A stretch of DNA of 64,000 nt from the sequence record MT533174.1; one strand, given 5' to 3'. The notes below the pieces were generated by a model that was given only the letters and a program-made list of their open reading frames with translations, did not search any database and had not been told where the DNA came from. The stretch is from Escherichia phage CJ20. This document shows positions 36,597-43,680 of the stretch, in pieces; within the stretch, counting starts at the first letter, position 1; each line of letters starts with the position of its first letter. The translations under genes were made by a program, and so were the position numbers.

Positions 36597-36601
36597 GTTC
36601 A

Positions 36602-36629
36602 GGGACTCTTCGGAGTCCCTTTTTTATTT
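36602..36629 (+). terminator. rho-independent terminator (GGGACUC-UUCG-GAGUCCC + U-run)
   Basis: GC hairpin with UUCG loop and T-run. Confidence 0.75.
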
Positions 36630-38036: not shown

Positions 38037-38249
38037 ATGTTTAAGAAACTGATTCAGAAAATTTTGGGAACAGAAATGGTTGAAGTTACTTATCGCGTAA
38101 CTGACGTGAGTCCATGGGCCCGAAATATTGAACCATATACTAAAACAATTAAAATGCTGAAATCTGACGGTGGATTATCTATTAAAGACCGTCTACCTGG
38201 TTATGGTCATTGGGCTGATGTAGATATTATCAGCGTCAAAGATATTTAA
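38037..38249 (+). CDS. hypothetical protein (70 aa), tandem paralogue 1
   Basis: Shares EMVEVTYRVxD...SIKxRLPxxGxWxxxxIISVKD with next ORF. Confidence 0.45.
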   Translation: MFKKLIQKILGTEMVEVTYRVTDVSPWARNIEPYTKTIKMLKSDGGLSIKDRLPGYGHWADVDIISVKDI

Positions 38250-38258
38250 GGAACCTTC

Positions 38259-38471
38259 ATGATTAAGAAATTATTTAAAAAGCTGTTTGGCTTGGAAATG
38301 GTTGAAGTTACTTATCGTGTTATTGATTTATCACCTCCATATGCTTGTGATGAAGATGCTATTAAGACTGTTGTAATGCGAAAAACATATCGCGGGCGGT
38401 CAATTAAATCCAGATTACCGGACCACGGTATGTGGTATGCAACCAAGATTATCAGTGTCAAAGATGTCTGA
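38259..38471 (+). CDS. hypothetical protein (70 aa), tandem paralogue 2
   Basis: Same length and conserved motif blocks as ORF 38037. Confidence 0.45.
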   Translation: MIKKLFKKLFGLEMVEVTYRVIDLSPPYACDEDAIKTVVMRKTYRGRSIKSRLPDHGMWYATKIISVKDV

Positions 38472-38922
38472 GTTAGAAATCAGAAGCAATTTCCCATGGC
38501 CGTCATGTGCATTAAGTAACTTTGCTAAACGGCCTTTTGTTATGGAGGGCATCCAGTTTGGGGGTCTTGAAGGCTTCCTTCAAGGGTGTAAGGTGAAAAA
38601 TCATGAACAACAAAAACGTATATTTGGGATGTCCGGCTTGGCCGCCCAGCAAAGTGGAAGAGCTTATGCAAGAGCTGCGGACCGTGGGACGCTTTTCTGG
38701 CTTGGAATTCCCTTTTCAAGATACTCTGCAGCATGGAAAGAGTTGTATACAAATGCATATTTTGAAGCAGCGCTCCAAAACAGAGGGTTTCGCGATGCGT
38801 TACAATCCACAAAAGGCAAAGTTTTAAAGCATTCGATGGCGAGCCACCTTACTGTTCATGATACAATATTGACTGAACAAGAATTTATTGACATACTTAA
38901 CCAATTGAGAGATGCATTATGA
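38464..38922 (+). CDS. NADAR (YbiA/DUF1768)-like domain protein (152 aa)
   Basis: N-terminal LSNFA...P...EG..F...EGFLQGCK pattern resembles the NADAR/YbiA signature; motif-level only. Confidence 0.45.
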   Translation: MSELEIRSNFPWPSCALSNFAKRPFVMEGIQFGGLEGFLQGCKVKNHEQQKRIFGMSGLAAQQSGRAYARAADRGTLFWLGIPFSRYSAAWKELYTNAYFEAALQNRGFRDALQSTKGKVLKHSMASHLTVHDTILTEQEFIDILNQLRDAL

Positions 38923-39743
38923 AACCCGTTATTTTAACAGATATTGATGGCGTATGTTTGTCATGGCAGTCAGGCTTGCCTTATTTCGCCCAAAAATACA
39001 ATTTACCCCTGGAACATATCCTTAAGATGATTCAGGATGAAAAATTTGTGACCCCTGGTAAACTGTTCAATTGTGATGAAGAGTTGGGAGCACAGTTGAT
39101 TGAGAAATATAACTGTTCAGATTTTATTCGCTATTTGTCTCCTTACGCAGATGCGTTAAGGGTTATTAATAACCTCAAAGAGCAATATGATTTTGTGGCT
39201 GTTACTGCCCTAGGTGATTCCATTGACGCCCGTCTGAATCGTCAATTCAACCTGAATGCTTTGTTCCCTGGTGCATTTAAAGAAGTGATGATGTGTGGCC
39301 ATACAGCCTCTAAAGAAGAGTTATTCCAGAAAGCGAAGACCAAATATAATGTCGTTTGTTATATTGATGACCTTGCACACCATTGCGACCATGCGAGTGA
39401 AATCCTTGAAGTCCCGGTTTATTGGATGGCCCGTGGCGAACGTGATGCTATTCCTAAAACAGCTTCCAAAGTTTTTAATTGGGACGATATTGCTGGACAG
39501 CTTAAACTGAAACACAAAGATGAACCAGTCAAACCAGAATTCACCCCTGATGAACTCCGTAAACTGGAAGAGTTGTTTCGTGAAACTCGCCGTCTTCAAC
39601 AACAAATGCAACAAGGCTGGCAGCCAGGTCAACCATGGACCCCTGGATATAATCCAGCATATCCATATCAATATGGCCCACGCGTAGGTACTGGCATTGA
39701 ATATTGGTACAATCAACCGACTGGTGGCCAAGGGGGTAATTGA
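38919..39743 (+). CDS. HAD-superfamily hydrolase-like protein with Gln/Pro/Gly/Tyr-rich C-terminal tail (274 aa)
   Basis: N-terminal LTDIDGV (DxDG HAD motif I); low-complexity tail QQQMQQGWQPGQPWTPGYNPAYPYQYGP. Confidence 0.45.
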   Translation: MKPVILTDIDGVCLSWQSGLPYFAQKYNLPLEHILKMIQDEKFVTPGKLFNCDEELGAQLIEKYNCSDFIRYLSPYADALRVINNLKEQYDFVAVTALGDSIDARLNRQFNLNALFPGAFKEVMMCGHTASKEELFQKAKTKYNVVCYIDDLAHHCDHASEILEVPVYWMARGERDAIPKTASKVFNWDDIAGQLKLKHKDEPVKPEFTPDELRKLEELFRETRRLQQQMQQGWQPGQPWTPGYNPAYPYQYGPRVGTGIEYWYNQPTGGQGGN

Positions 39744-40021
39744 TGTTTGTCGTTCATACTATTTCTGATTACGGTCCTACTACTACCATGGATTATGGCC
39801 ATGTTAATCAGTTTATTCGTCATGTGAATCATGATTACTCGTTTGATATTAACCCAGCCAAAGACCATCCGGTTTGGCGTGAATGTGTTGAGCAAGGGTT
39901 TATCTATGTTCACTTTATGTCTAAGTTTAAACCAGATGGGCGAATGAGATTTGTGTTCACTTATCACAAACGCCTGGATTTGCTTTTGGAAGATGTGGCA
40001 TATAATAGAGCCAACGACTAA
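39740..40021 (+). CDS. hypothetical protein (93 aa)
   Basis: ATGA overlap with previous ORF. Confidence 0.45.
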   Translation: MMFVVHTISDYGPTTTMDYGHVNQFIRHVNHDYSFDINPAKDHPVWRECVEQGFIYVHFMSKFKPDGRMRFVFTYHKRLDLLLEDVAYNRAND

Positions 40022-40030
40022 GAGGTGATT

Positions 40031-41563
40031 ATGATTTTAGATATTTTAAATGAAATTGCTGCAACCGATTCCACTAAAGAGAAACAAGCTATCCTGGAAT
40101 CATATTCTGACAATGAAACCCTTAAACGCGTGTATCGTTTGACATATTCCAAAGGCATCCAGTTCTATATTAAGAAATGGCCAAAACCTGGGACAACGAC
40201 TCAAAGCTTTGGTATGCTGAATATCGATGATATGCTTGACTTTATCGAATTCACATTAGCCTCTCGTAAATTAACAGGTAATGCTGCAATCGAGGAATTA
40301 TCTGGCTATATTGCTGATGGTAAAAAGGCTGATGTTGAAGTCCTGCGGCGTGTTATGATGCGTGACCTGGAATGTGGGGCATCCGTATCAATTGCAAATA
40401 AGGTTTGGAAAGGTTTAATTCCTGAACAACCGCAGATGCTCGCTTCTTCCTATGATGAAGCCGGTATTGCCAAGAACATTAAGTTCCCGGCCTTTGCGCA
40501 ATTGAAAGCCGACGGCGCTCGGTGTTTTGCAGAAGTTCGTGGCGATGAGTTGGATGATGTTCGATTGTTATCCCGAGCTGGCAACGAATACCTCAAGCTT
40601 GACCTTCTTAAAAAGGAATTGATTGAAGCTACCCGTGAAGCGCGTGAGAGACATCCTGAGGGCGTTTTGATTGACGGTGAGTTAGTATATCATGAACAGA
40701 AAATAGCTCCCCAGAATGACGGTTTGGGCTTCCTTTTTGACGATTCAGATGAGATTGCCCCTGCACAAGAAACTGCGGAATCAAGAACCTTTTCAAATGG
40801 TCTGGCAAACAAATCATTGAAAGGAACTATTTCGGCAGCAGAAGCTTCTTGCATGAAATTCCAGGTTTGGGATTATGTTCCGCTGATTGAAGTCTATTCT
40901 GATGTTAAGATTCTCAATCCGTTGAAATACGATGTGCGTTTTGCTGTTCTGGAAAAAATGATTGCAGATAACGTGGTGCTGCATGGTTTTGACCGCATGA
41001 TTCTGATTGAAAACCATGTTGTTAACAATCTCGATGAAGCGAAGGTTATCTATAAGAAATATGTGGATGAAGGTCTTGAAGGTATTATCCTTAAGAACAT
41101 GGCATCGATTTGGGAAAACAAGCGCTCAAAGAACTTGTACAAGTTCAAAGAAGTAATTGACATTGCAATGGAAATCATTGGATATTACGAGCACGATAAA
41201 GACCCGGATAAGATTGGCGGTGTTGTGCTTCGTTCTTCTTGTGGTAAGATTACAAATAACTGTGGTTCTGGGTTTAAAGACACAACTCAAGTTAAAGATA
41301 AGAAAACCAAAAAATGGGTTACTATTCCGATTGAGGAGCGTCATGAAATGGACCGTGAAGCCTTGATGGTTAAAGCTCGTAAAGGTGAATTGGTTGGAAT
41401 GATTGCTGACTGTGAATGTAATGGTTGGTTGACTTCCGAAACTCGTAAAGATAATACGGTTGCATTGTTCCTGCCGATTATCAAAGGGTTCCGTTTCGAT
41501 AAAGACCATGCAGACACATTCGAAGATGTATTTGGCGACTGGGCAAAGACCGGGTTAAAATAA
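40031..41563 (+). CDS. 30: ATP-dependent DNA ligase (510 aa)
   Basis: Adenylylation motif KADGAR; long blocks matching recalled T4 gp30; ATG at 40031 preferred over GTG at 40025. Confidence 0.9.
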   Translation: MILDILNEIAATDSTKEKQAILESYSDNETLKRVYRLTYSKGIQFYIKKWPKPGTTTQSFGMLNIDDMLDFIEFTLASRKLTGNAAIEELSGYIADGKKADVEVLRRVMMRDLECGASVSIANKVWKGLIPEQPQMLASSYDEAGIAKNIKFPAFAQLKADGARCFAEVRGDELDDVRLLSRAGNEYLKLDLLKKELIEATREARERHPEGVLIDGELVYHEQKIAPQNDGLGFLFDDSDEIAPAQETAESRTFSNGLANKSLKGTISAAEASCMKFQVWDYVPLIEVYSDVKILNPLKYDVRFAVLEKMIADNVVLHGFDRMILIENHVVNNLDEAKVIYKKYVDEGLEGIILKNMASIWENKRSKNLYKFKEVIDIAMEIIGYYEHDKDPDKIGGVVLRSSCGKITNNCGSGFKDTTQVKDKKTKKWVTIPIEERHEMDREALMVKARKGELVGMIADCECNGWLTSETRKDNTVALFLPIIKGFRFDKDHADTFEDVFGDWAKTGLK

Positions 41564-41619: not shown

Positions 41620-43680
41620 ATGTCTGAACAATTAAATGAACTCTTTGACAAATATATCGAAGCCTTCGGTTATCCTGTCATTAATATGAACCCAAAATAC
41701 AAGGTCCCACAGGTTTGGCAATTCGGTGTTCCTGGGACCAATTCTCTTATGGCTCGTTTGATGCAATTCACGGGCAAAGAAACAGTTAAACAGTATAAAC
41801 GCGGTGATGCAATTGCCGAGGTATTCCTGCTCTCCGGGACTTCACATGGCCATGCTGTTCCTCTGAAGGGTGGTCTAGGTGAAAAACCTCTTGATGCAAT
41901 TAACCTGATTTTTGTTACAGTGTGGGAAAGCATTAAACTGGGCAAACCTGATGTAGTCTTGTTCCGTTTCCCATCCAAAAAGATGAAAGGACAAGACCAA
42001 GCTGTTATTCGTATTATGAATCGACTGATTCAAATGAAAACCAGCGGGCGTTATCATGTTCTTCCGAATGCTTCTGGCCTCGGTAAAAAGAACGCTTATG
42101 TAATTATGTACAAAAAGGGTGTTGACCTGCTTTCGGTTGATGGTATGCCACCAGTCCCTGAGAAATATCAAAAAGTTGAAACTAAAGTTGGCGATGTATT
42201 CACCAATAAAGATACAGGTGCTCAAGTCTCCAAACAAGAAATCGCAGCCGAAGTTCTGATTGACGCAGCAAACAAAAAGACCGACGCTGCTGTTGCCCAG
42301 AAAACTAAAATCAGTCGCCGAGCTATTGCACAAGCCCAGTACGCACCAAGTGATTCCGTGCCAGAAGGTTGGGACGAAATTGATGCAGAAGCTGCTAAGT
42401 TTAGTCGACCGGCTACGGCAGAACTTATCGATGATTATGAAGAACTGGAAATTTTTGTTCGACCTTCCGAAACGAATACTATGGCTCGTATGCGCGCAGC
42501 AGATGAGGCTATGCGAGCAAATGGTGTTTGGAAAGAAGAAATTCGTGTTGAAGACTCTGACCCAATTTTTAACCGTATGCATCGTGAACTTAAACGTGCC
42601 CCTGTTGGCAGTATGAAGCAGATGCAGATTTTTGCCGAATCATGTGCCGAGATTCTTAACCTTCGCAAAGCTGCATTTATCGAAAGAAAAATGAATGATG
42701 CTCCTCCTAACCTGGATGCAGCCACTTATGCAGCCTCGCTCTGGGAAAAAGAATACACAAGCGCCATTCGTGTTGCAGTTAAAGACTTTGCCGAAGAAGC
42801 ATCAGAAAACACTCTTAATTTCACAGCAGGGTATACTGACAACCGTTTCCATTATGGCCAGCGAGAAGCAATTGCAGATTATTGTGGAGCAAACTATGCT
42901 GATATTAATAATTATTTGATGGGCAAATATTATGAAGAAGAAGCTGAATTCCTAAATCTAGACAGAGTTGTCGAAACAATTAAGGAATTGGATTCGGCCT
43001 TTGAAATTGGACATAAGTTGCCGCCTAATACAACTCTTTGGCGTGGTCAATATTTAAATGTTCCTACATTTGATAAAATTAAGCAATCGAAATTATTTTA
43101 TTTCAGGAACTATGTATCAACGTCGTTTAAACCGATTATCTTTGGTGGTTGGGTGGCGAACGTTGCTATGGCTGCAGTTCATCAGGACTATCGTGATGGG
43201 ACATCTTTCCAGGCTGATGACGAAATTGTTTTACCAGATATGCCGGATGCACGCCGCGACCACGTAATGATGCATGTTGGTTGGAAAATTTCTGGGGCGG
43301 ACTTAATTAACGTAATTGTTCCTGGGGAATTGTCAGGCAACCCATCCGAGCAGGAAGTTATTCTTCCGCGTGGAACTGTAGTTAAGATTACCAAAATTAC
43401 TGATGCTTCGTATCAAGGAAACGCGAACGTCAAAATGCTGGAAGCTGATATCCAGACTACGGACCAACTGGATGAAAATGCAGTTATCTATGATGGTGAT
43501 GTGTTGATGGAAACTGGTGAGCTTGTCGTTTATCAGGGCAAGGAAACAGAAGAGCCAGCAGAATCTGTTGACTTTGCATCGTTTGCATCCTCTGGGGTAA
43601 CGAAGAAAGTCAATCAAGGTCTTGGTATTCTTGCTAGTTGTATTAATTTGGAAGCTATTCCTCCTAAATTCCTTTCGTAG
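41620..43680 (+). CDS. alt: Alt-like ADP-ribosyltransferase (686 aa)
   Basis: C-terminal ART triad R (LWRGQ) / STS (YVSTSF) / ExE-like (SEQEVILPRG); size and position next to gene 30 as T4 Alt. Confidence 0.65.
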   Translation: MSEQLNELFDKYIEAFGYPVINMNPKYKVPQVWQFGVPGTNSLMARLMQFTGKETVKQYKRGDAIAEVFLLSGTSHGHAVPLKGGLGEKPLDAINLIFVTVWESIKLGKPDVVLFRFPSKKMKGQDQAVIRIMNRLIQMKTSGRYHVLPNASGLGKKNAYVIMYKKGVDLLSVDGMPPVPEKYQKVETKVGDVFTNKDTGAQVSKQEIAAEVLIDAANKKTDAAVAQKTKISRRAIAQAQYAPSDSVPEGWDEIDAEAAKFSRPATAELIDDYEELEIFVRPSETNTMARMRAADEAMRANGVWKEEIRVEDSDPIFNRMHRELKRAPVGSMKQMQIFAESCAEILNLRKAAFIERKMNDAPPNLDAATYAASLWEKEYTSAIRVAVKDFAEEASENTLNFTAGYTDNRFHYGQREAIADYCGANYADINNYLMGKYYEEEAEFLNLDRVVETIKELDSAFEIGHKLPPNTTLWRGQYLNVPTFDKIKQSKLFYFRNYVSTSFKPIIFGGWVANVAMAAVHQDYRDGTSFQADDEIVLPDMPDARRDHVMMHVGWKISGADLINVIVPGELSGNPSEQEVILPRGTVVKITKITDASYQGNANVKMLEADIQTTDQLDENAVIYDGDVLMETGELVVYQGKETEEPAESVDFASFASSGVTKKVNQGLGILASCINLEAIPPKFLS

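What the first reader, a model, noticed from the sequence alone, without database searches (positions are those of the whole stretch)
38464..39743. NADAR-like protein coupled to a HAD hydrolase with a low-complexity tail
ORF 38464-38922 carries an N-terminal pattern (LSNFA...EG.QF..LEGFLQGCK) reminiscent of the NADAR/YbiA fold, a family linked to NAD and ADP-ribose metabolism and to reversing DNA ADP-ribosylation by DarT-type toxins. It overlaps the start of a HAD-motif protein (LTDIDGV) whose C-terminus is a Gln/Pro/Tyr/Gly-rich tail. Together with the Alt ADP-ribosyltransferase 2 kb downstream, this is the most plausible counter-defence or ADP-ribose-processing module in the window.
Basis: inference. 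Interest (0 to 1): 0.6.

Follow-up and report, generated by a model that had tools for sequence, protein, structure and literature searches.

The report
Known phage anti-DarT enzyme plus phosphatase
The first gene is this T4-like phage's copy of AdfN (gp30.3), an already published enzyme that strips ADP-ribose off phage DNA to defeat the bacterial DarTG1 defence, and the phosphatase-like gene next to it is a separate protein of unknown substrate that is not needed for that job in T4.

Summary
Both ORFs are real and sit at the stated coordinates. The window is a T4-like phage, closest to Gaprivervirus SP18/VR20.

**ORF 38464-38922 is gp30.3.**
- It matches Pfam PF08010 at E = 3e-63 and is 84% identical to T4 gp30.3.
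- The catalytic residues E36, K43 and H123 are present, and the protein is full length.
- T4 gp30.3 is already published as AdfN, a NADAR enzyme that removes ADP-ribose from DNA and counters DarTG1.

**ORF 38919-39743 is gp30.2.**
- It has a capped HAD phosphatase fold with all four catalytic motifs.
- A helix and a disordered Gly/Pro/Tyr/Gln-rich tail follow the fold. The tail carries a conserved C-terminal motif, GTGIEYWYNQPT.

**The proposed NADAR + HAD + Alt module is not supported.**
- In published T4 transposon sequencing on DarTG1, 30.3 insertions are lost (log2FC -7.25). Insertions in 30.2 (-0.12) and alt (-0.01) are neutral.
- Across 80 gp30.3-like viral loci, 61 have no gp30.2 within the up to 6 kb of flank held.
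- The conserved neighbour of gp30.2 is the DNA ligase gene.

Verdict: already known, low interest. The function of gp30.2 remains open.

The parts
38464..38922 (+). adfN / gene 30.3: 152-aa NADAR-fold DNA ADP-ribosylglycohydrolase, the orthologue of T4 AdfN
38569..38592 (+). Catalytic segment E36-G-F-L-Q-G-C-K43 (GAA at 38569-38571, AAG at 38590-38592)
   Evidence: E36 is invariant and K43 is conserved in at least 90% of 77 family members. Both are identical in T4, where E36A and K43A abolish rescue. The segment aligns to the E..Q..K segment of YbiA.
38830..38832 (+). H123 codon (CAT): the histidine after the last strand that marks the phage gp30.3 clade of NADARs
   Evidence: Invariant in 77 sequences. 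It lies just after strand 120-122 in the model. PMC11125620 states that phage NADARs have His where YbiA has Glu and DarT1-linked NADARs have Asp.
38875..38919 (+). C-terminal helix of AdfN (residues 138-152), intact here
   Evidence: The model has a helix at 138-151. The RB69 frameshift that removes the last 15 residues inactivates the protein. The window ORF is full length.
38919..39743 (+). Gene 30.2: 274-aa HAD-superfamily phosphatase-like protein with a C-terminal extension
38940..38948 (+). HAD motif I, D8-I-D10 (GAT ATT GAT): nucleophile and general acid/base
   Evidence: D8 and D10 are invariant in 70 homologues, together with K132, D150 and D151. T96 is conserved in at least 90%.
39546..39614 (+). 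Long helix (residues 210-232) linking the HAD core to the tail
   Evidence: AF2 secondary structure and pLDDT of 86-92 for this block.
39615..39740 (+). Predicted disordered Gly/Pro/Tyr/Gln/Trp-rich tail (residues 233-274)
   Evidence: pLDDT of 43-59. Composition. 58 of the 116 cluster representatives are shorter than 245 aa, most ending within about 40 residues of the HAD core.
39687..39722 (+). Conserved C-terminal peptide motif G-T-G-I-E-Y-W-Y-N-Q-P-T inside the tail
   Evidence: The motif [IVL]E[YW][LWYM]xx[QR][PA]T lies 6-10 residues from the C-terminus in 16 of 116 cluster representatives. These include phages whose gp30.2 is only about 50% identical overall. It occurs only once in the six-frame translation of the window.
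38037..38471 (+). Context: two tandem, diverged gp30.4 copies directly upstream of adfN
   Evidence: phrog_2042 at E = 3e-34 and 8e-26. The copies are 54% identical to each other, and SP18 and T4 have one copy.
39740..41563 (+). Context: gp30.1 (DUF3045, 39740-40021) and ATP-dependent DNA ligase gp30 (40025-41563), the conserved neighbours of gp30.2
   Evidence: Pfam hits. A ligase gene starts between 36 nt before and 1.5 kb after the end of gp30.2, within about 340 nt in 26, in all 28 T4-like loci with usable flank.
41620..43680 (+). Context: Alt ADP-ribosyltransferase. It is syntenic as in T4 and is not part of the AdfN function.
   Evidence: Pfam ADPrib_exo_Tox at E = 2e-19. T4 alt insertions are neutral on DarTG1, log2FC -0.01.

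Best explanation
The locus is the 30.3-30.2 gene pair of a T4-like (Tevenvirinae) phage. The two genes sit in one tightly packed, apparently co-transcribed string that runs 30.8 to 30, with Alt just downstream.

gp30.3 (38464-38922) is the orthologue of T4 AdfN. AdfN is a stand-alone NADAR enzyme that cuts the bond between ADP-ribose and guanine in DNA. When a host DarT1 toxin ADP-ribosylates the replicating phage DNA, AdfN removes the adduct and replication proceeds, so it acts as an orphan antitoxin.
- Shown here: family membership, NADAR fold, intact catalytic E36/K43/H123, and an intact C-terminal helix.
- Shown by others for T4: glycohydrolase activity, and necessity and sufficiency against DarTG1.
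- Inferred: that this 84%-identical orthologue does the same.

gp30.2 (38919-39743) is an independent Mg-dependent HAD phosphatase.
- It has an Asp nucleophile (D8), acid/base D10, and T96, K132 and D150/D151.
- It carries a helical C1 cap, which in this superfamily goes with small-molecule substrates. A (deoxy)nucleotidase-like activity is the best guess, but the substrate is unknown.
- Its tail is a helix plus a disordered segment carrying a short conserved peptide, probably a docking motif.

The adjacency and 4-nt overlap of the two genes reflect T-even gene packing, not a shared function.
For: gp30.3 identity and fold:
- Pfam PF08010 at E = 3.2e-63.
- 84% identity to T4 gp30.3, with E36 and K43 identical and the same 152-aa length.
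- E36 and H123 are invariant and K43 is conserved in at least 90% of 77 homologues.
- AF2 pLDDT 93.2.
- The family profile finds only YbiA in the PDB, E = 0.019 over the catalytic segment.
- 32 of 77 family members hit Pfam NADAR, best E = 1.5e-7.

Published function of the T4 orthologue:
- T4 gp30.3/AdfN is necessary and sufficient against DarTG1. E36A and K43A variants are inactive, and purified protein removes ADP-ribose from DNA (10.1101/2024.07.11.602962).
- Guanine-ADPr hydrolysis was shown in vitro (PMC11125620).
- T4 transposon sequencing gives 30.3 a log2FC of -7.25 on DarTG1 (10.1101/2025.11.20.689424, Data S6).

gp30.2:
- D8, D10, K132, D150 and D151 are invariant.
- The model has a HAD fold with an inserted helical cap at residues 16-86.
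- Viral structural neighbours are annotated as 5' nucleotidases.
- 8 of 70 homologues hit Pfam NT5C.

Independence of the two genes:
- 30.2 has log2FC -0.12 (p = 0.61) and alt -0.01 on DarTG1.
- 61 of 80 gp30.3-like loci lack gp30.2 within the flank, and 66 of 79 gp30.2 loci lack gp30.3.
- Several complete genomes hold both genes 55-60 kb apart.
Against: - No experiment was done on this phage's own protein. It differs from T4 AdfN at 16% of positions.
- The window protein does not itself reach any threshold against Pfam NADAR PF08719.
- The HAD assignment rests on fold and motifs. The best Pfam hit (HAD_2, 14.2 bits) is below the 23.8-bit cut-off.
- The published authors left open that T-even phages encode another factor needed for full AdfN activity. 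The transposon data argue against 30.2 being that factor in T4, but they come from a single replicate comparison in one host.
Confidence: 0.88

Rival explanations
1. NADAR, HAD and possibly Alt form one functional module. AdfN releases ADP-ribose from DNA and gp30.2 processes the released ADP-ribose or a derived sugar phosphate, or is the extra phage factor that AdfN needs for full activity in vivo.
For: - The genes overlap by 4 nt and are adjacent in all close T-even relatives.
- AdfN works well only in T-even infections, and the authors mention a possible additional phage factor.
- A phosphatase could plausibly act on ADP-ribose breakdown products (inference only).
Against: - T4 insertions in 30.2 are neutral on DarTG1 (log2FC -0.12, p = 0.61), while 30.3 is at -7.25. 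alt is at -0.01.
- Only 19 of 80 gp30.3-like loci have gp30.2 within the up to 6 kb of flank held.
- Several complete phage genomes carry both genes 55-60 kb apart.
- 16 of 29 T4-like gp30.2 loci have no gp30.3 nearby.
- Purified AdfN works alone in vitro.
- Start/stop overlaps recur along this gene string (30.6/30.5, 30.4/30.3, 30.3/30.2, 30.2/30.1), so this overlap is not specific to the pair.
Confidence: 0.05
2. gp30.2 works with the DNA ligase downstream as a DNA-end or nick-processing phosphatase, for example a 3'-phosphatase like the HAD domain of T4 Pnkp, rather than on small molecules.
For: - A ligase gene follows gp30.2 closely in all 28 T4-like loci with usable flank, far more constant than the link to gp30.3.
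- A weak phrog_415 'polynucleotide kinase' hit at E = 0.0012.
- A conserved C-terminal peptide could dock it onto a replication or repair protein.
Against: - The model has a roughly 70-residue helical C1 cap over the active site. By established HAD-family knowledge this goes with small substrates, whereas Pnkp-type phosphatases are capless.
- 30.2 is non-essential in T4, with 72 of 72 TA sites hit, while ligase is essential.
- Conserved gene order in Straboviridae core regions is common without any functional link.
Confidence: 0.1
3. gp30.3 is a housekeeping YbiA-type N-glycosidase acting on riboflavin-pathway intermediates or free nucleotides, not on DNA.
For: - YbiA-like proteins are linked to riboflavin metabolism.
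Against: - The diagnostic last-strand residue is His, not the Glu of the YbiA family.
- The T4 orthologue removes ADP-ribose from DNA and is conditionally essential only on DarTG1.
Confidence: 0.02

Closest known systems
T4 AdfN (gp30.3), anti-DarT factor NADAR; Pfam PF08010 Phage_30_3
   Same: - 84% identical, same 152-aa length, and the same catalytic E36/K43 and clade-specific His.
- Same position between 30.4 and 30.2, with the same 4-nt overlap with 30.2.
   Different: - 24 substitutions, none at invariant family positions.
- Two gp30.4 copies lie upstream here instead of one.
- No experiment has been done on this allele.
DarG1 / DarT1-associated NADAR antitoxins (e.g. Geobacter lovleyi NADAR, PDB 8bat)
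   Same: - Same chemistry according to the literature, which is removal of ADP-ribose from guanine in DNA.
- Reported to be the closest cellular relatives of the phage clade.
   Different: - No N-terminal extension.
- His instead of Asp in the last strand.
- Not encoded next to a DarT toxin.
- T4 AdfN cannot replace DarG1 in uninfected cells.
E. coli YbiA (PDB 2b3w) and Phytophthora NADAR (8bau)
   Same: - The E..Q..K segment aligns.
   Different: - Only 18-19% identity.
- YbiA has Glu in the last strand and a housekeeping context.
HAD superfamily, C1-capped phosphatases; nearest named group is the 5'(3')-deoxyribonucleotidases (Pfam NT5C; PDB 3bwv, 2jao, 6g2n)
   Same: - Rossmann-like HAD core, DxD motif, Thr, Lys and DD motifs, and a helical cap after motif I.
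   Different: - No significant sequence match to any curated HAD family.
- An added helix plus a disordered tail with a conserved terminal motif.
- Substrate unknown.
T4 Pnkp 3'-phosphatase domain (PDB 1ltq, 5uj0)
   Same: - A phage-encoded enzyme.
   Different: - By established knowledge of the family, Pnkp's phosphatase is capless and acts on nucleic-acid ends.
- gp30.2 has a cap and no kinase domain.

Membership tests
NADAR superfamily (YbiA fold) | [quoted passage not shown] | tested here: met
   [not shown]
NADAR superfamily (YbiA fold) | Conserved catalytic Glu and Lys in the helix after the first strands (T4 AdfN E36, K43) | tested here: met
   E36 is invariant and K43 is conserved in at least 90% of 77 homologues, and both are present in the window protein. 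They align with the E...K segment of YbiA.
NADAR superfamily (YbiA fold) | Charged or catalytic residue in the last strand (Glu in YbiA, Asp in DarT1-linked NADARs, His in the phage gp30.3 clade) | tested here: met
   H123 is invariant and lies at the end of strand 120-122. The clade rule comes from PMC11125620.
NADAR superfamily (YbiA fold) | Significant sequence-profile match to Pfam PF08719 NADAR | tested here: inconclusive
   The window protein has no hit at E <= 1. However, 32 of 77 family members hit PF08719 (best E = 1.5e-7), and the family profile hits YbiA at E = 0.019.
NADAR superfamily (YbiA fold) | Hydrolysis of guanine-linked ADP-ribose on DNA | not testable with these tools
   Shown for the T4 orthologue in vitro and inferred here from 84% identity.
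AdfN / gp30.3 (Pfam PF08010) | Match to PF08010 above the curated cut-off | tested here: met
   212.1 bits against a cut-off of 36, E = 3.2e-63, covering profile positions 2-138 of 138.
AdfN / gp30.3 (Pfam PF08010) | Intact C-terminal helix (its loss inactivates the RB69 allele) | tested here: met
   Full 152 aa, collinear with T4 to the last residue, with a helix at 138-151 in the model.
AdfN / gp30.3 (Pfam PF08010) | Confers resistance to DarTG1 | not testable with these tools
   T4 data only: genetics and transposon sequencing with log2FC -7.25.
HAD superfamily phosphatase | Rossmann-like HAD core fold | tested here: met
   [not shown]
HAD superfamily phosphatase | Four catalytic motifs: DxD, Thr/Ser, Lys, and DD/ED | tested here: met
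   D8, D10, K132, D150 and D151 are invariant, and T96 is conserved in at least 90% of 70 homologues.
HAD superfamily phosphatase | Match to a curated HAD sequence family above its cut-off | tested here: not met
   HAD_2 scores 14.2 bits against a cut-off of 23.8. No NCBIfam hit. Among homologues the best is Pfam Hydrolase at E = 9.6e-5 in 16 of 70.
5'(3')-deoxyribonucleotidase (NT5C) family | Specific sequence or structure match that separates it from other HADs | tested here: inconclusive
   [not shown]
Proposed NADAR-HAD(-Alt) counter-defence module | Conserved co-occurrence and adjacency of the genes across phages | tested here: not met
   19 of 80 gp30.3-like loci and 13 of 79 gp30.2 loci have the partner within the up to 6 kb of flank held. 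Both genes lie 55-60 kb apart in several complete genomes.
Proposed NADAR-HAD(-Alt) counter-defence module | Shared phenotype against the same defence system | tested here: not met
   Read from published T4 transposon data, not tested by me experimentally. On DarTG1, 30.3 is at -7.25, 30.2 at -0.12 and alt at -0.01 log2FC.

The most novel reading that the evidence does not exclude
gp30.2 is not a generic nucleotidase. On this reading it is a ligase-linked HAD phosphatase that a conserved C-terminal docking peptide (GTGIEY[LW]xxQPT, at the end of a disordered tail) recruits to a specific phage or host partner. That would give it a so far undescribed role in DNA or nucleotide transactions, or in countering a defence other than DarTG1.

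My data do not exclude this:
- The motif is conserved across phages whose gp30.2 is only about 50% identical overall.
- The ligase adjacency holds in all 28 T4-like loci with usable flank.
- No function has been published for gp30.2.
Probability: 0.15. Interest if true: 0.4.

Novelty: already known. Interest (0 to 1): 0.15.

Why it matters
It matters little beyond annotation.
- The NADAR gene can be named adfN with confidence, which predicts that this phage resists DarTG1-type defence. That is useful when choosing therapeutic phages or interpreting host range.
- The result is also a caution. Adjacency and start/stop overlap in T-even genomes should not be read as a functional module. The HAD neighbour and Alt are dispensable for the AdfN phenotype in T4.
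- The open item is gp30.2. It is a widely conserved T4-like phage phosphatase with intact catalytic residues, a conserved terminal peptide motif and no known substrate or phenotype.

Tried and rejected
- Single-sequence phmmer of gp30.3 against PDB sequences gave no hit at E <= 10. For gp30.2 it gave only noise-level hits.
- Profile searches of the PDB gave YbiA at E = 0.019 for gp30.3 and nothing significant for gp30.2.
- NCBIfam and PADLOC gave no hits for either protein.
BFVD was used instead.
- Literature searches for 'gp30.2', and for '30.2' plus '30.3' plus 'bacteriophage T4' plus 'alt', found nothing. One search failed on a too-short term.
- I looked for the gp30.2 tail motif elsewhere in the six-frame translation of the window, to see whether other proteins share it. 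There were no other occurrences.
- I read part 17 of the HIDEN-SEQ supplement hoping for a 30.2 value in another condition. That part did not contain the 30.2 row, and I did not pursue it.
- I considered that the T4-annotated internal ORF 30.3' might be a real overlapping gene. The frame is open here but is broken by stops in SP18 and one other relative, and its start codon varies. I do not count it as a conserved gene.
Full report
**What is in the sequence**

The region lies in a T4-like phage.
- A 2.1-kb query around the finding matches 256 phage records.
- The best are Escherichia and Shigella Tevenvirinae at 93-97% identity: TH44, PSD2001, VR20 and SP18, with SP18 classified as Gaprivervirus.
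- The + strand carries the canonical T4 order 30.8, 30.7, 30.6, 30.5, 30.4, 30.3, 30.2, 30.1, 30 (DNA ligase), alt.

- ORF 38464-38922 encodes 152 aa and contains the quoted ALSNFA...EGIQFGGLEGFLQGCK stretch.
- ORF 38919-39743 encodes 274 aa, starts MKPVILTDIDGV, and ends in a 42-residue segment rich in Gly, Pro, Tyr, Gln and Trp.
- The first ORF's start overlaps the stop of the upstream gene (ATGTCTGA). Its stop overlaps the second ORF's start (ATGA).
- Alt begins 1.9 kb further on.

**ORF 1 is gp30.3 / AdfN, a NADAR enzyme**

Sequence evidence:
- It matches Pfam PF08010 (Phage_30_3) at E = 3.2e-63, covering the whole model.
- It is 84% identical to T4 gp30.3 and 93% identical to SP18 gp30.3, with identical length.
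- It does not itself hit Pfam NADAR PF08719 at E <= 1. It also has no single-sequence match in the PDB.
- The wider evidence overrides this clause. I aligned 77 homologues.
  - 32 of them hit PF08719, best E = 1.5e-7.
  - Their profile finds one PDB chain only, E. coli YbiA, at E = 0.019 over the SNF...E..Q..K segment.

Structural evidence:
- The AlphaFold2 model is confident (pLDDT 93.2, pTM 0.89).
- The next hit scores 4.0.

Catalytic residues:
- E36 and H123 are invariant, and K43 is conserved in at least 90% of the family.

**This is already published**

- Johannesman, Carlson and LeRoux (10.1101/2024.07.11.602962; also PMC11257639 and PMC11825919) mapped DarTG1 resistance of T-even phages to gene 30.3 and renamed it adfN.
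  - The gene is necessary and sufficient for resistance.
  - E36A and K43A variants are inactive.
  - Purified protein removes ADP-ribose from DarT1-modified DNA.
  - RB69 is sensitive because a frameshift removes the last 15 residues.
- PMC11125620 showed that T4 gp30.3 hydrolyses guanine-linked ADP-ribose in vitro. It also states that phage NADARs carry His where YbiA has Glu and DarT1-linked NADARs have Asp.
- The window protein has all of these features, including the intact C-terminal helix at residues 138-151.
- I therefore file it as an AdfN orthologue. The activity is inferred from 84% identity and conserved catalytic positions, not tested.

**ORF 2 is gp30.2, a HAD phosphatase-like protein with an extension**

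Family and distribution:
- It belongs to phrog_420 (E = 4e-79) and is 73% identical to T4 gp30.2.
- Curated sequence families barely see it. HAD_2 scores 14.2 bits, below its cut-off, and there are no NCBIfam hits.

Catalytic motifs and fold:
- In 70 aligned homologues, D8, D10, K132, D150 and D151 are invariant and T96 nearly so. That is the full HAD motif set with the DxD signature of phosphotransferases.
- The model (pLDDT 86.5) has a confident HAD core at residues 1-200, with a helical insertion at residues 16-86 directly after motif I, which is a C1 cap.
- A helix at 210-232 and a low-confidence tail at 233-274 follow the core.
  - T4 Pnkp's phosphatase domain scores 13.4.
- Viral structural neighbours include several proteins annotated as 5' nucleotidase.
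- 8 of 70 homologues weakly hit Pfam NT5C.

My reading:
- I commit to a Mg-dependent phosphomonoesterase acting on a small molecule, most likely nucleotide-like.
- The substrate is not established.

**The tail**

- Half of the homologues (58 of 116) are shorter than 245 aa, and most of these stop soon after the HAD core. The extension is therefore an add-on.
- It is not featureless. A motif [IVL]E[YW][LWYM]xx[QR][PA]T sits 6-10 residues from the C-terminus in 16 representatives. Here it reads GTGIEYWYNQPT, at 39687-39722.
- These representatives include Klebsiella and Citrobacter T4-like phages whose gp30.2 is only about 50% identical overall.
- That pattern fits a short docking peptide at the end of a flexible linker. 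The partner is unknown.
- The motif occurs nowhere else in the window.

**Is there a NADAR-HAD-Alt module?**

Two independent lines say no.

Genetics in T4:
- The source is the supplementary resampling table Control vs DarTG1 of the HIDEN-SEQ study (10.1101/2025.11.20.689424, Data S6).
- It lists two significant genes: 30.3 (log2FC -7.25, adjusted p 0) and the upstream 30.4 (-1.79, adjusted p 0.014).
- Gene 30.2 is at -0.12 (p = 0.61), 30.1 at -0.01, ligase at +0.06 and alt at -0.01.
- 30.2 is fully non-essential, with 72 of 72 TA sites hit.
- AdfN alone, supplied from a plasmid, restores RB69 plaquing on DarTG1, and purified AdfN works alone in vitro.

Comparative genomics:
- Of 80 viral loci encoding a gp30.3-like NADAR, 14 have gp30.2 immediately adjacent, 5 have it within 2 kb, and 61 do not have it within the up to 6 kb of flank held. 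Only 5 of those 61 have a short downstream flank.
- Of 79 gp30.2-like loci, 66 lack gp30.3 nearby.
- Several complete genomes hold both genes 55-60 kb apart, for example IMGVR_UViG_2706796756 and IMGVR_UViG_2974736276.
- gp30.2 is followed closely by the DNA ligase gene in all 28 T4-like loci with usable flank.
- The 4-nt overlap is ordinary for this gene string. Start/stop overlaps recur along it, at 30.6/30.5, 30.4/30.3, 30.3/30.2 and 30.2/30.1.
- The string is bounded by a terminator-like hairpin at 36601-36620 and another just after the ligase gene.

**Rivals**

- Functional module: about 0.05, disfavoured by the data above.
- gp30.2 as a ligase-associated DNA-end phosphatase: about 0.1. 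The constant ligase adjacency and the Pnkp similarity speak for it. The C1 cap and the non-essentiality speak against it.
- gp30.3 as a YbiA-type housekeeping glycosidase: about 0.02. The His signature and the T4 experiments speak against it.

**Verdict**

- The NADAR and counter-defence interpretation of ORF 1 is correct but already known as AdfN.
- The HAD call is correct at the fold level.
- The module idea is not supported.
- Interest is low. The only open question is the function of gp30.2 and of its conserved terminal motif.

Noticed in passing
window 38037-38249 and 38259-38471 (+): Two tandem, diverged copies of gp30.4 (54% identical to each other, both phrog_2042) sit directly upstream of adfN. 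SP18 and T4 have a single copy. In T4 transposon sequencing, 30.4 is the only other gene significantly depleted on DarTG1 (log2FC -1.79, adjusted p 0.014). This could be a polar effect on 30.3 or a real helper.
   Followed up: partly
window 38603-38827 (+), inside adfN in another frame: This is the counterpart of the T4-annotated internal ORF 30.3'. It is open here (74 aa, ATG start, 62% identical to T4). In SP18 and in locus L010 the same frame has an internal stop, and the start codon varies between ATG, GTG and TTG among relatives. It is probably not a conserved gene.
   Followed up: yes
window 38919-41563 (+); loci L083-L111: The constant neighbour of gp30.2 across T4-like phages is the ATP-dependent DNA ligase gene, sometimes with gp30.1 (DUF3045) between them. 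This holds in all 28 loci with usable flank. gp30.3 is nearby in only 13 of 29.
   Followed up: partly
window 39687-39722 (+): A conserved C-terminal peptide motif, GTGIEY[LW]xxQPT, lies inside the otherwise disordered gp30.2 tail. It is shared with Tequatrovirus and with Klebsiella and Citrobacter T4-like phages. It has no known partner and occurs nowhere else in the window.
   Followed up: partly
literature: PMC11125620 methods versus T4 record NC_000866 (locus L002 6308-6766): The Toxins 2024 paper lists its T4 phage NADAR (gp30.3) construct as residues 1-208, whereas gene 30.3 in the T4 reference record encodes 152 aa. The discrepancy is unexplained. It may reflect a different phage protein or a tagged construct.
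   Followed up: no
loci L112-L161 (viral metagenome contigs): A second, distant group of gp30.2-like HAD proteins (25-35% identical, about 200 aa, no tail) occurs on contigs with no detectable T4-type ligase, Alt or gp30.3 nearby. The HAD family therefore reaches beyond the phages that share the T4-type ligase/Alt/30.x gene neighbourhood.
   Followed up: no
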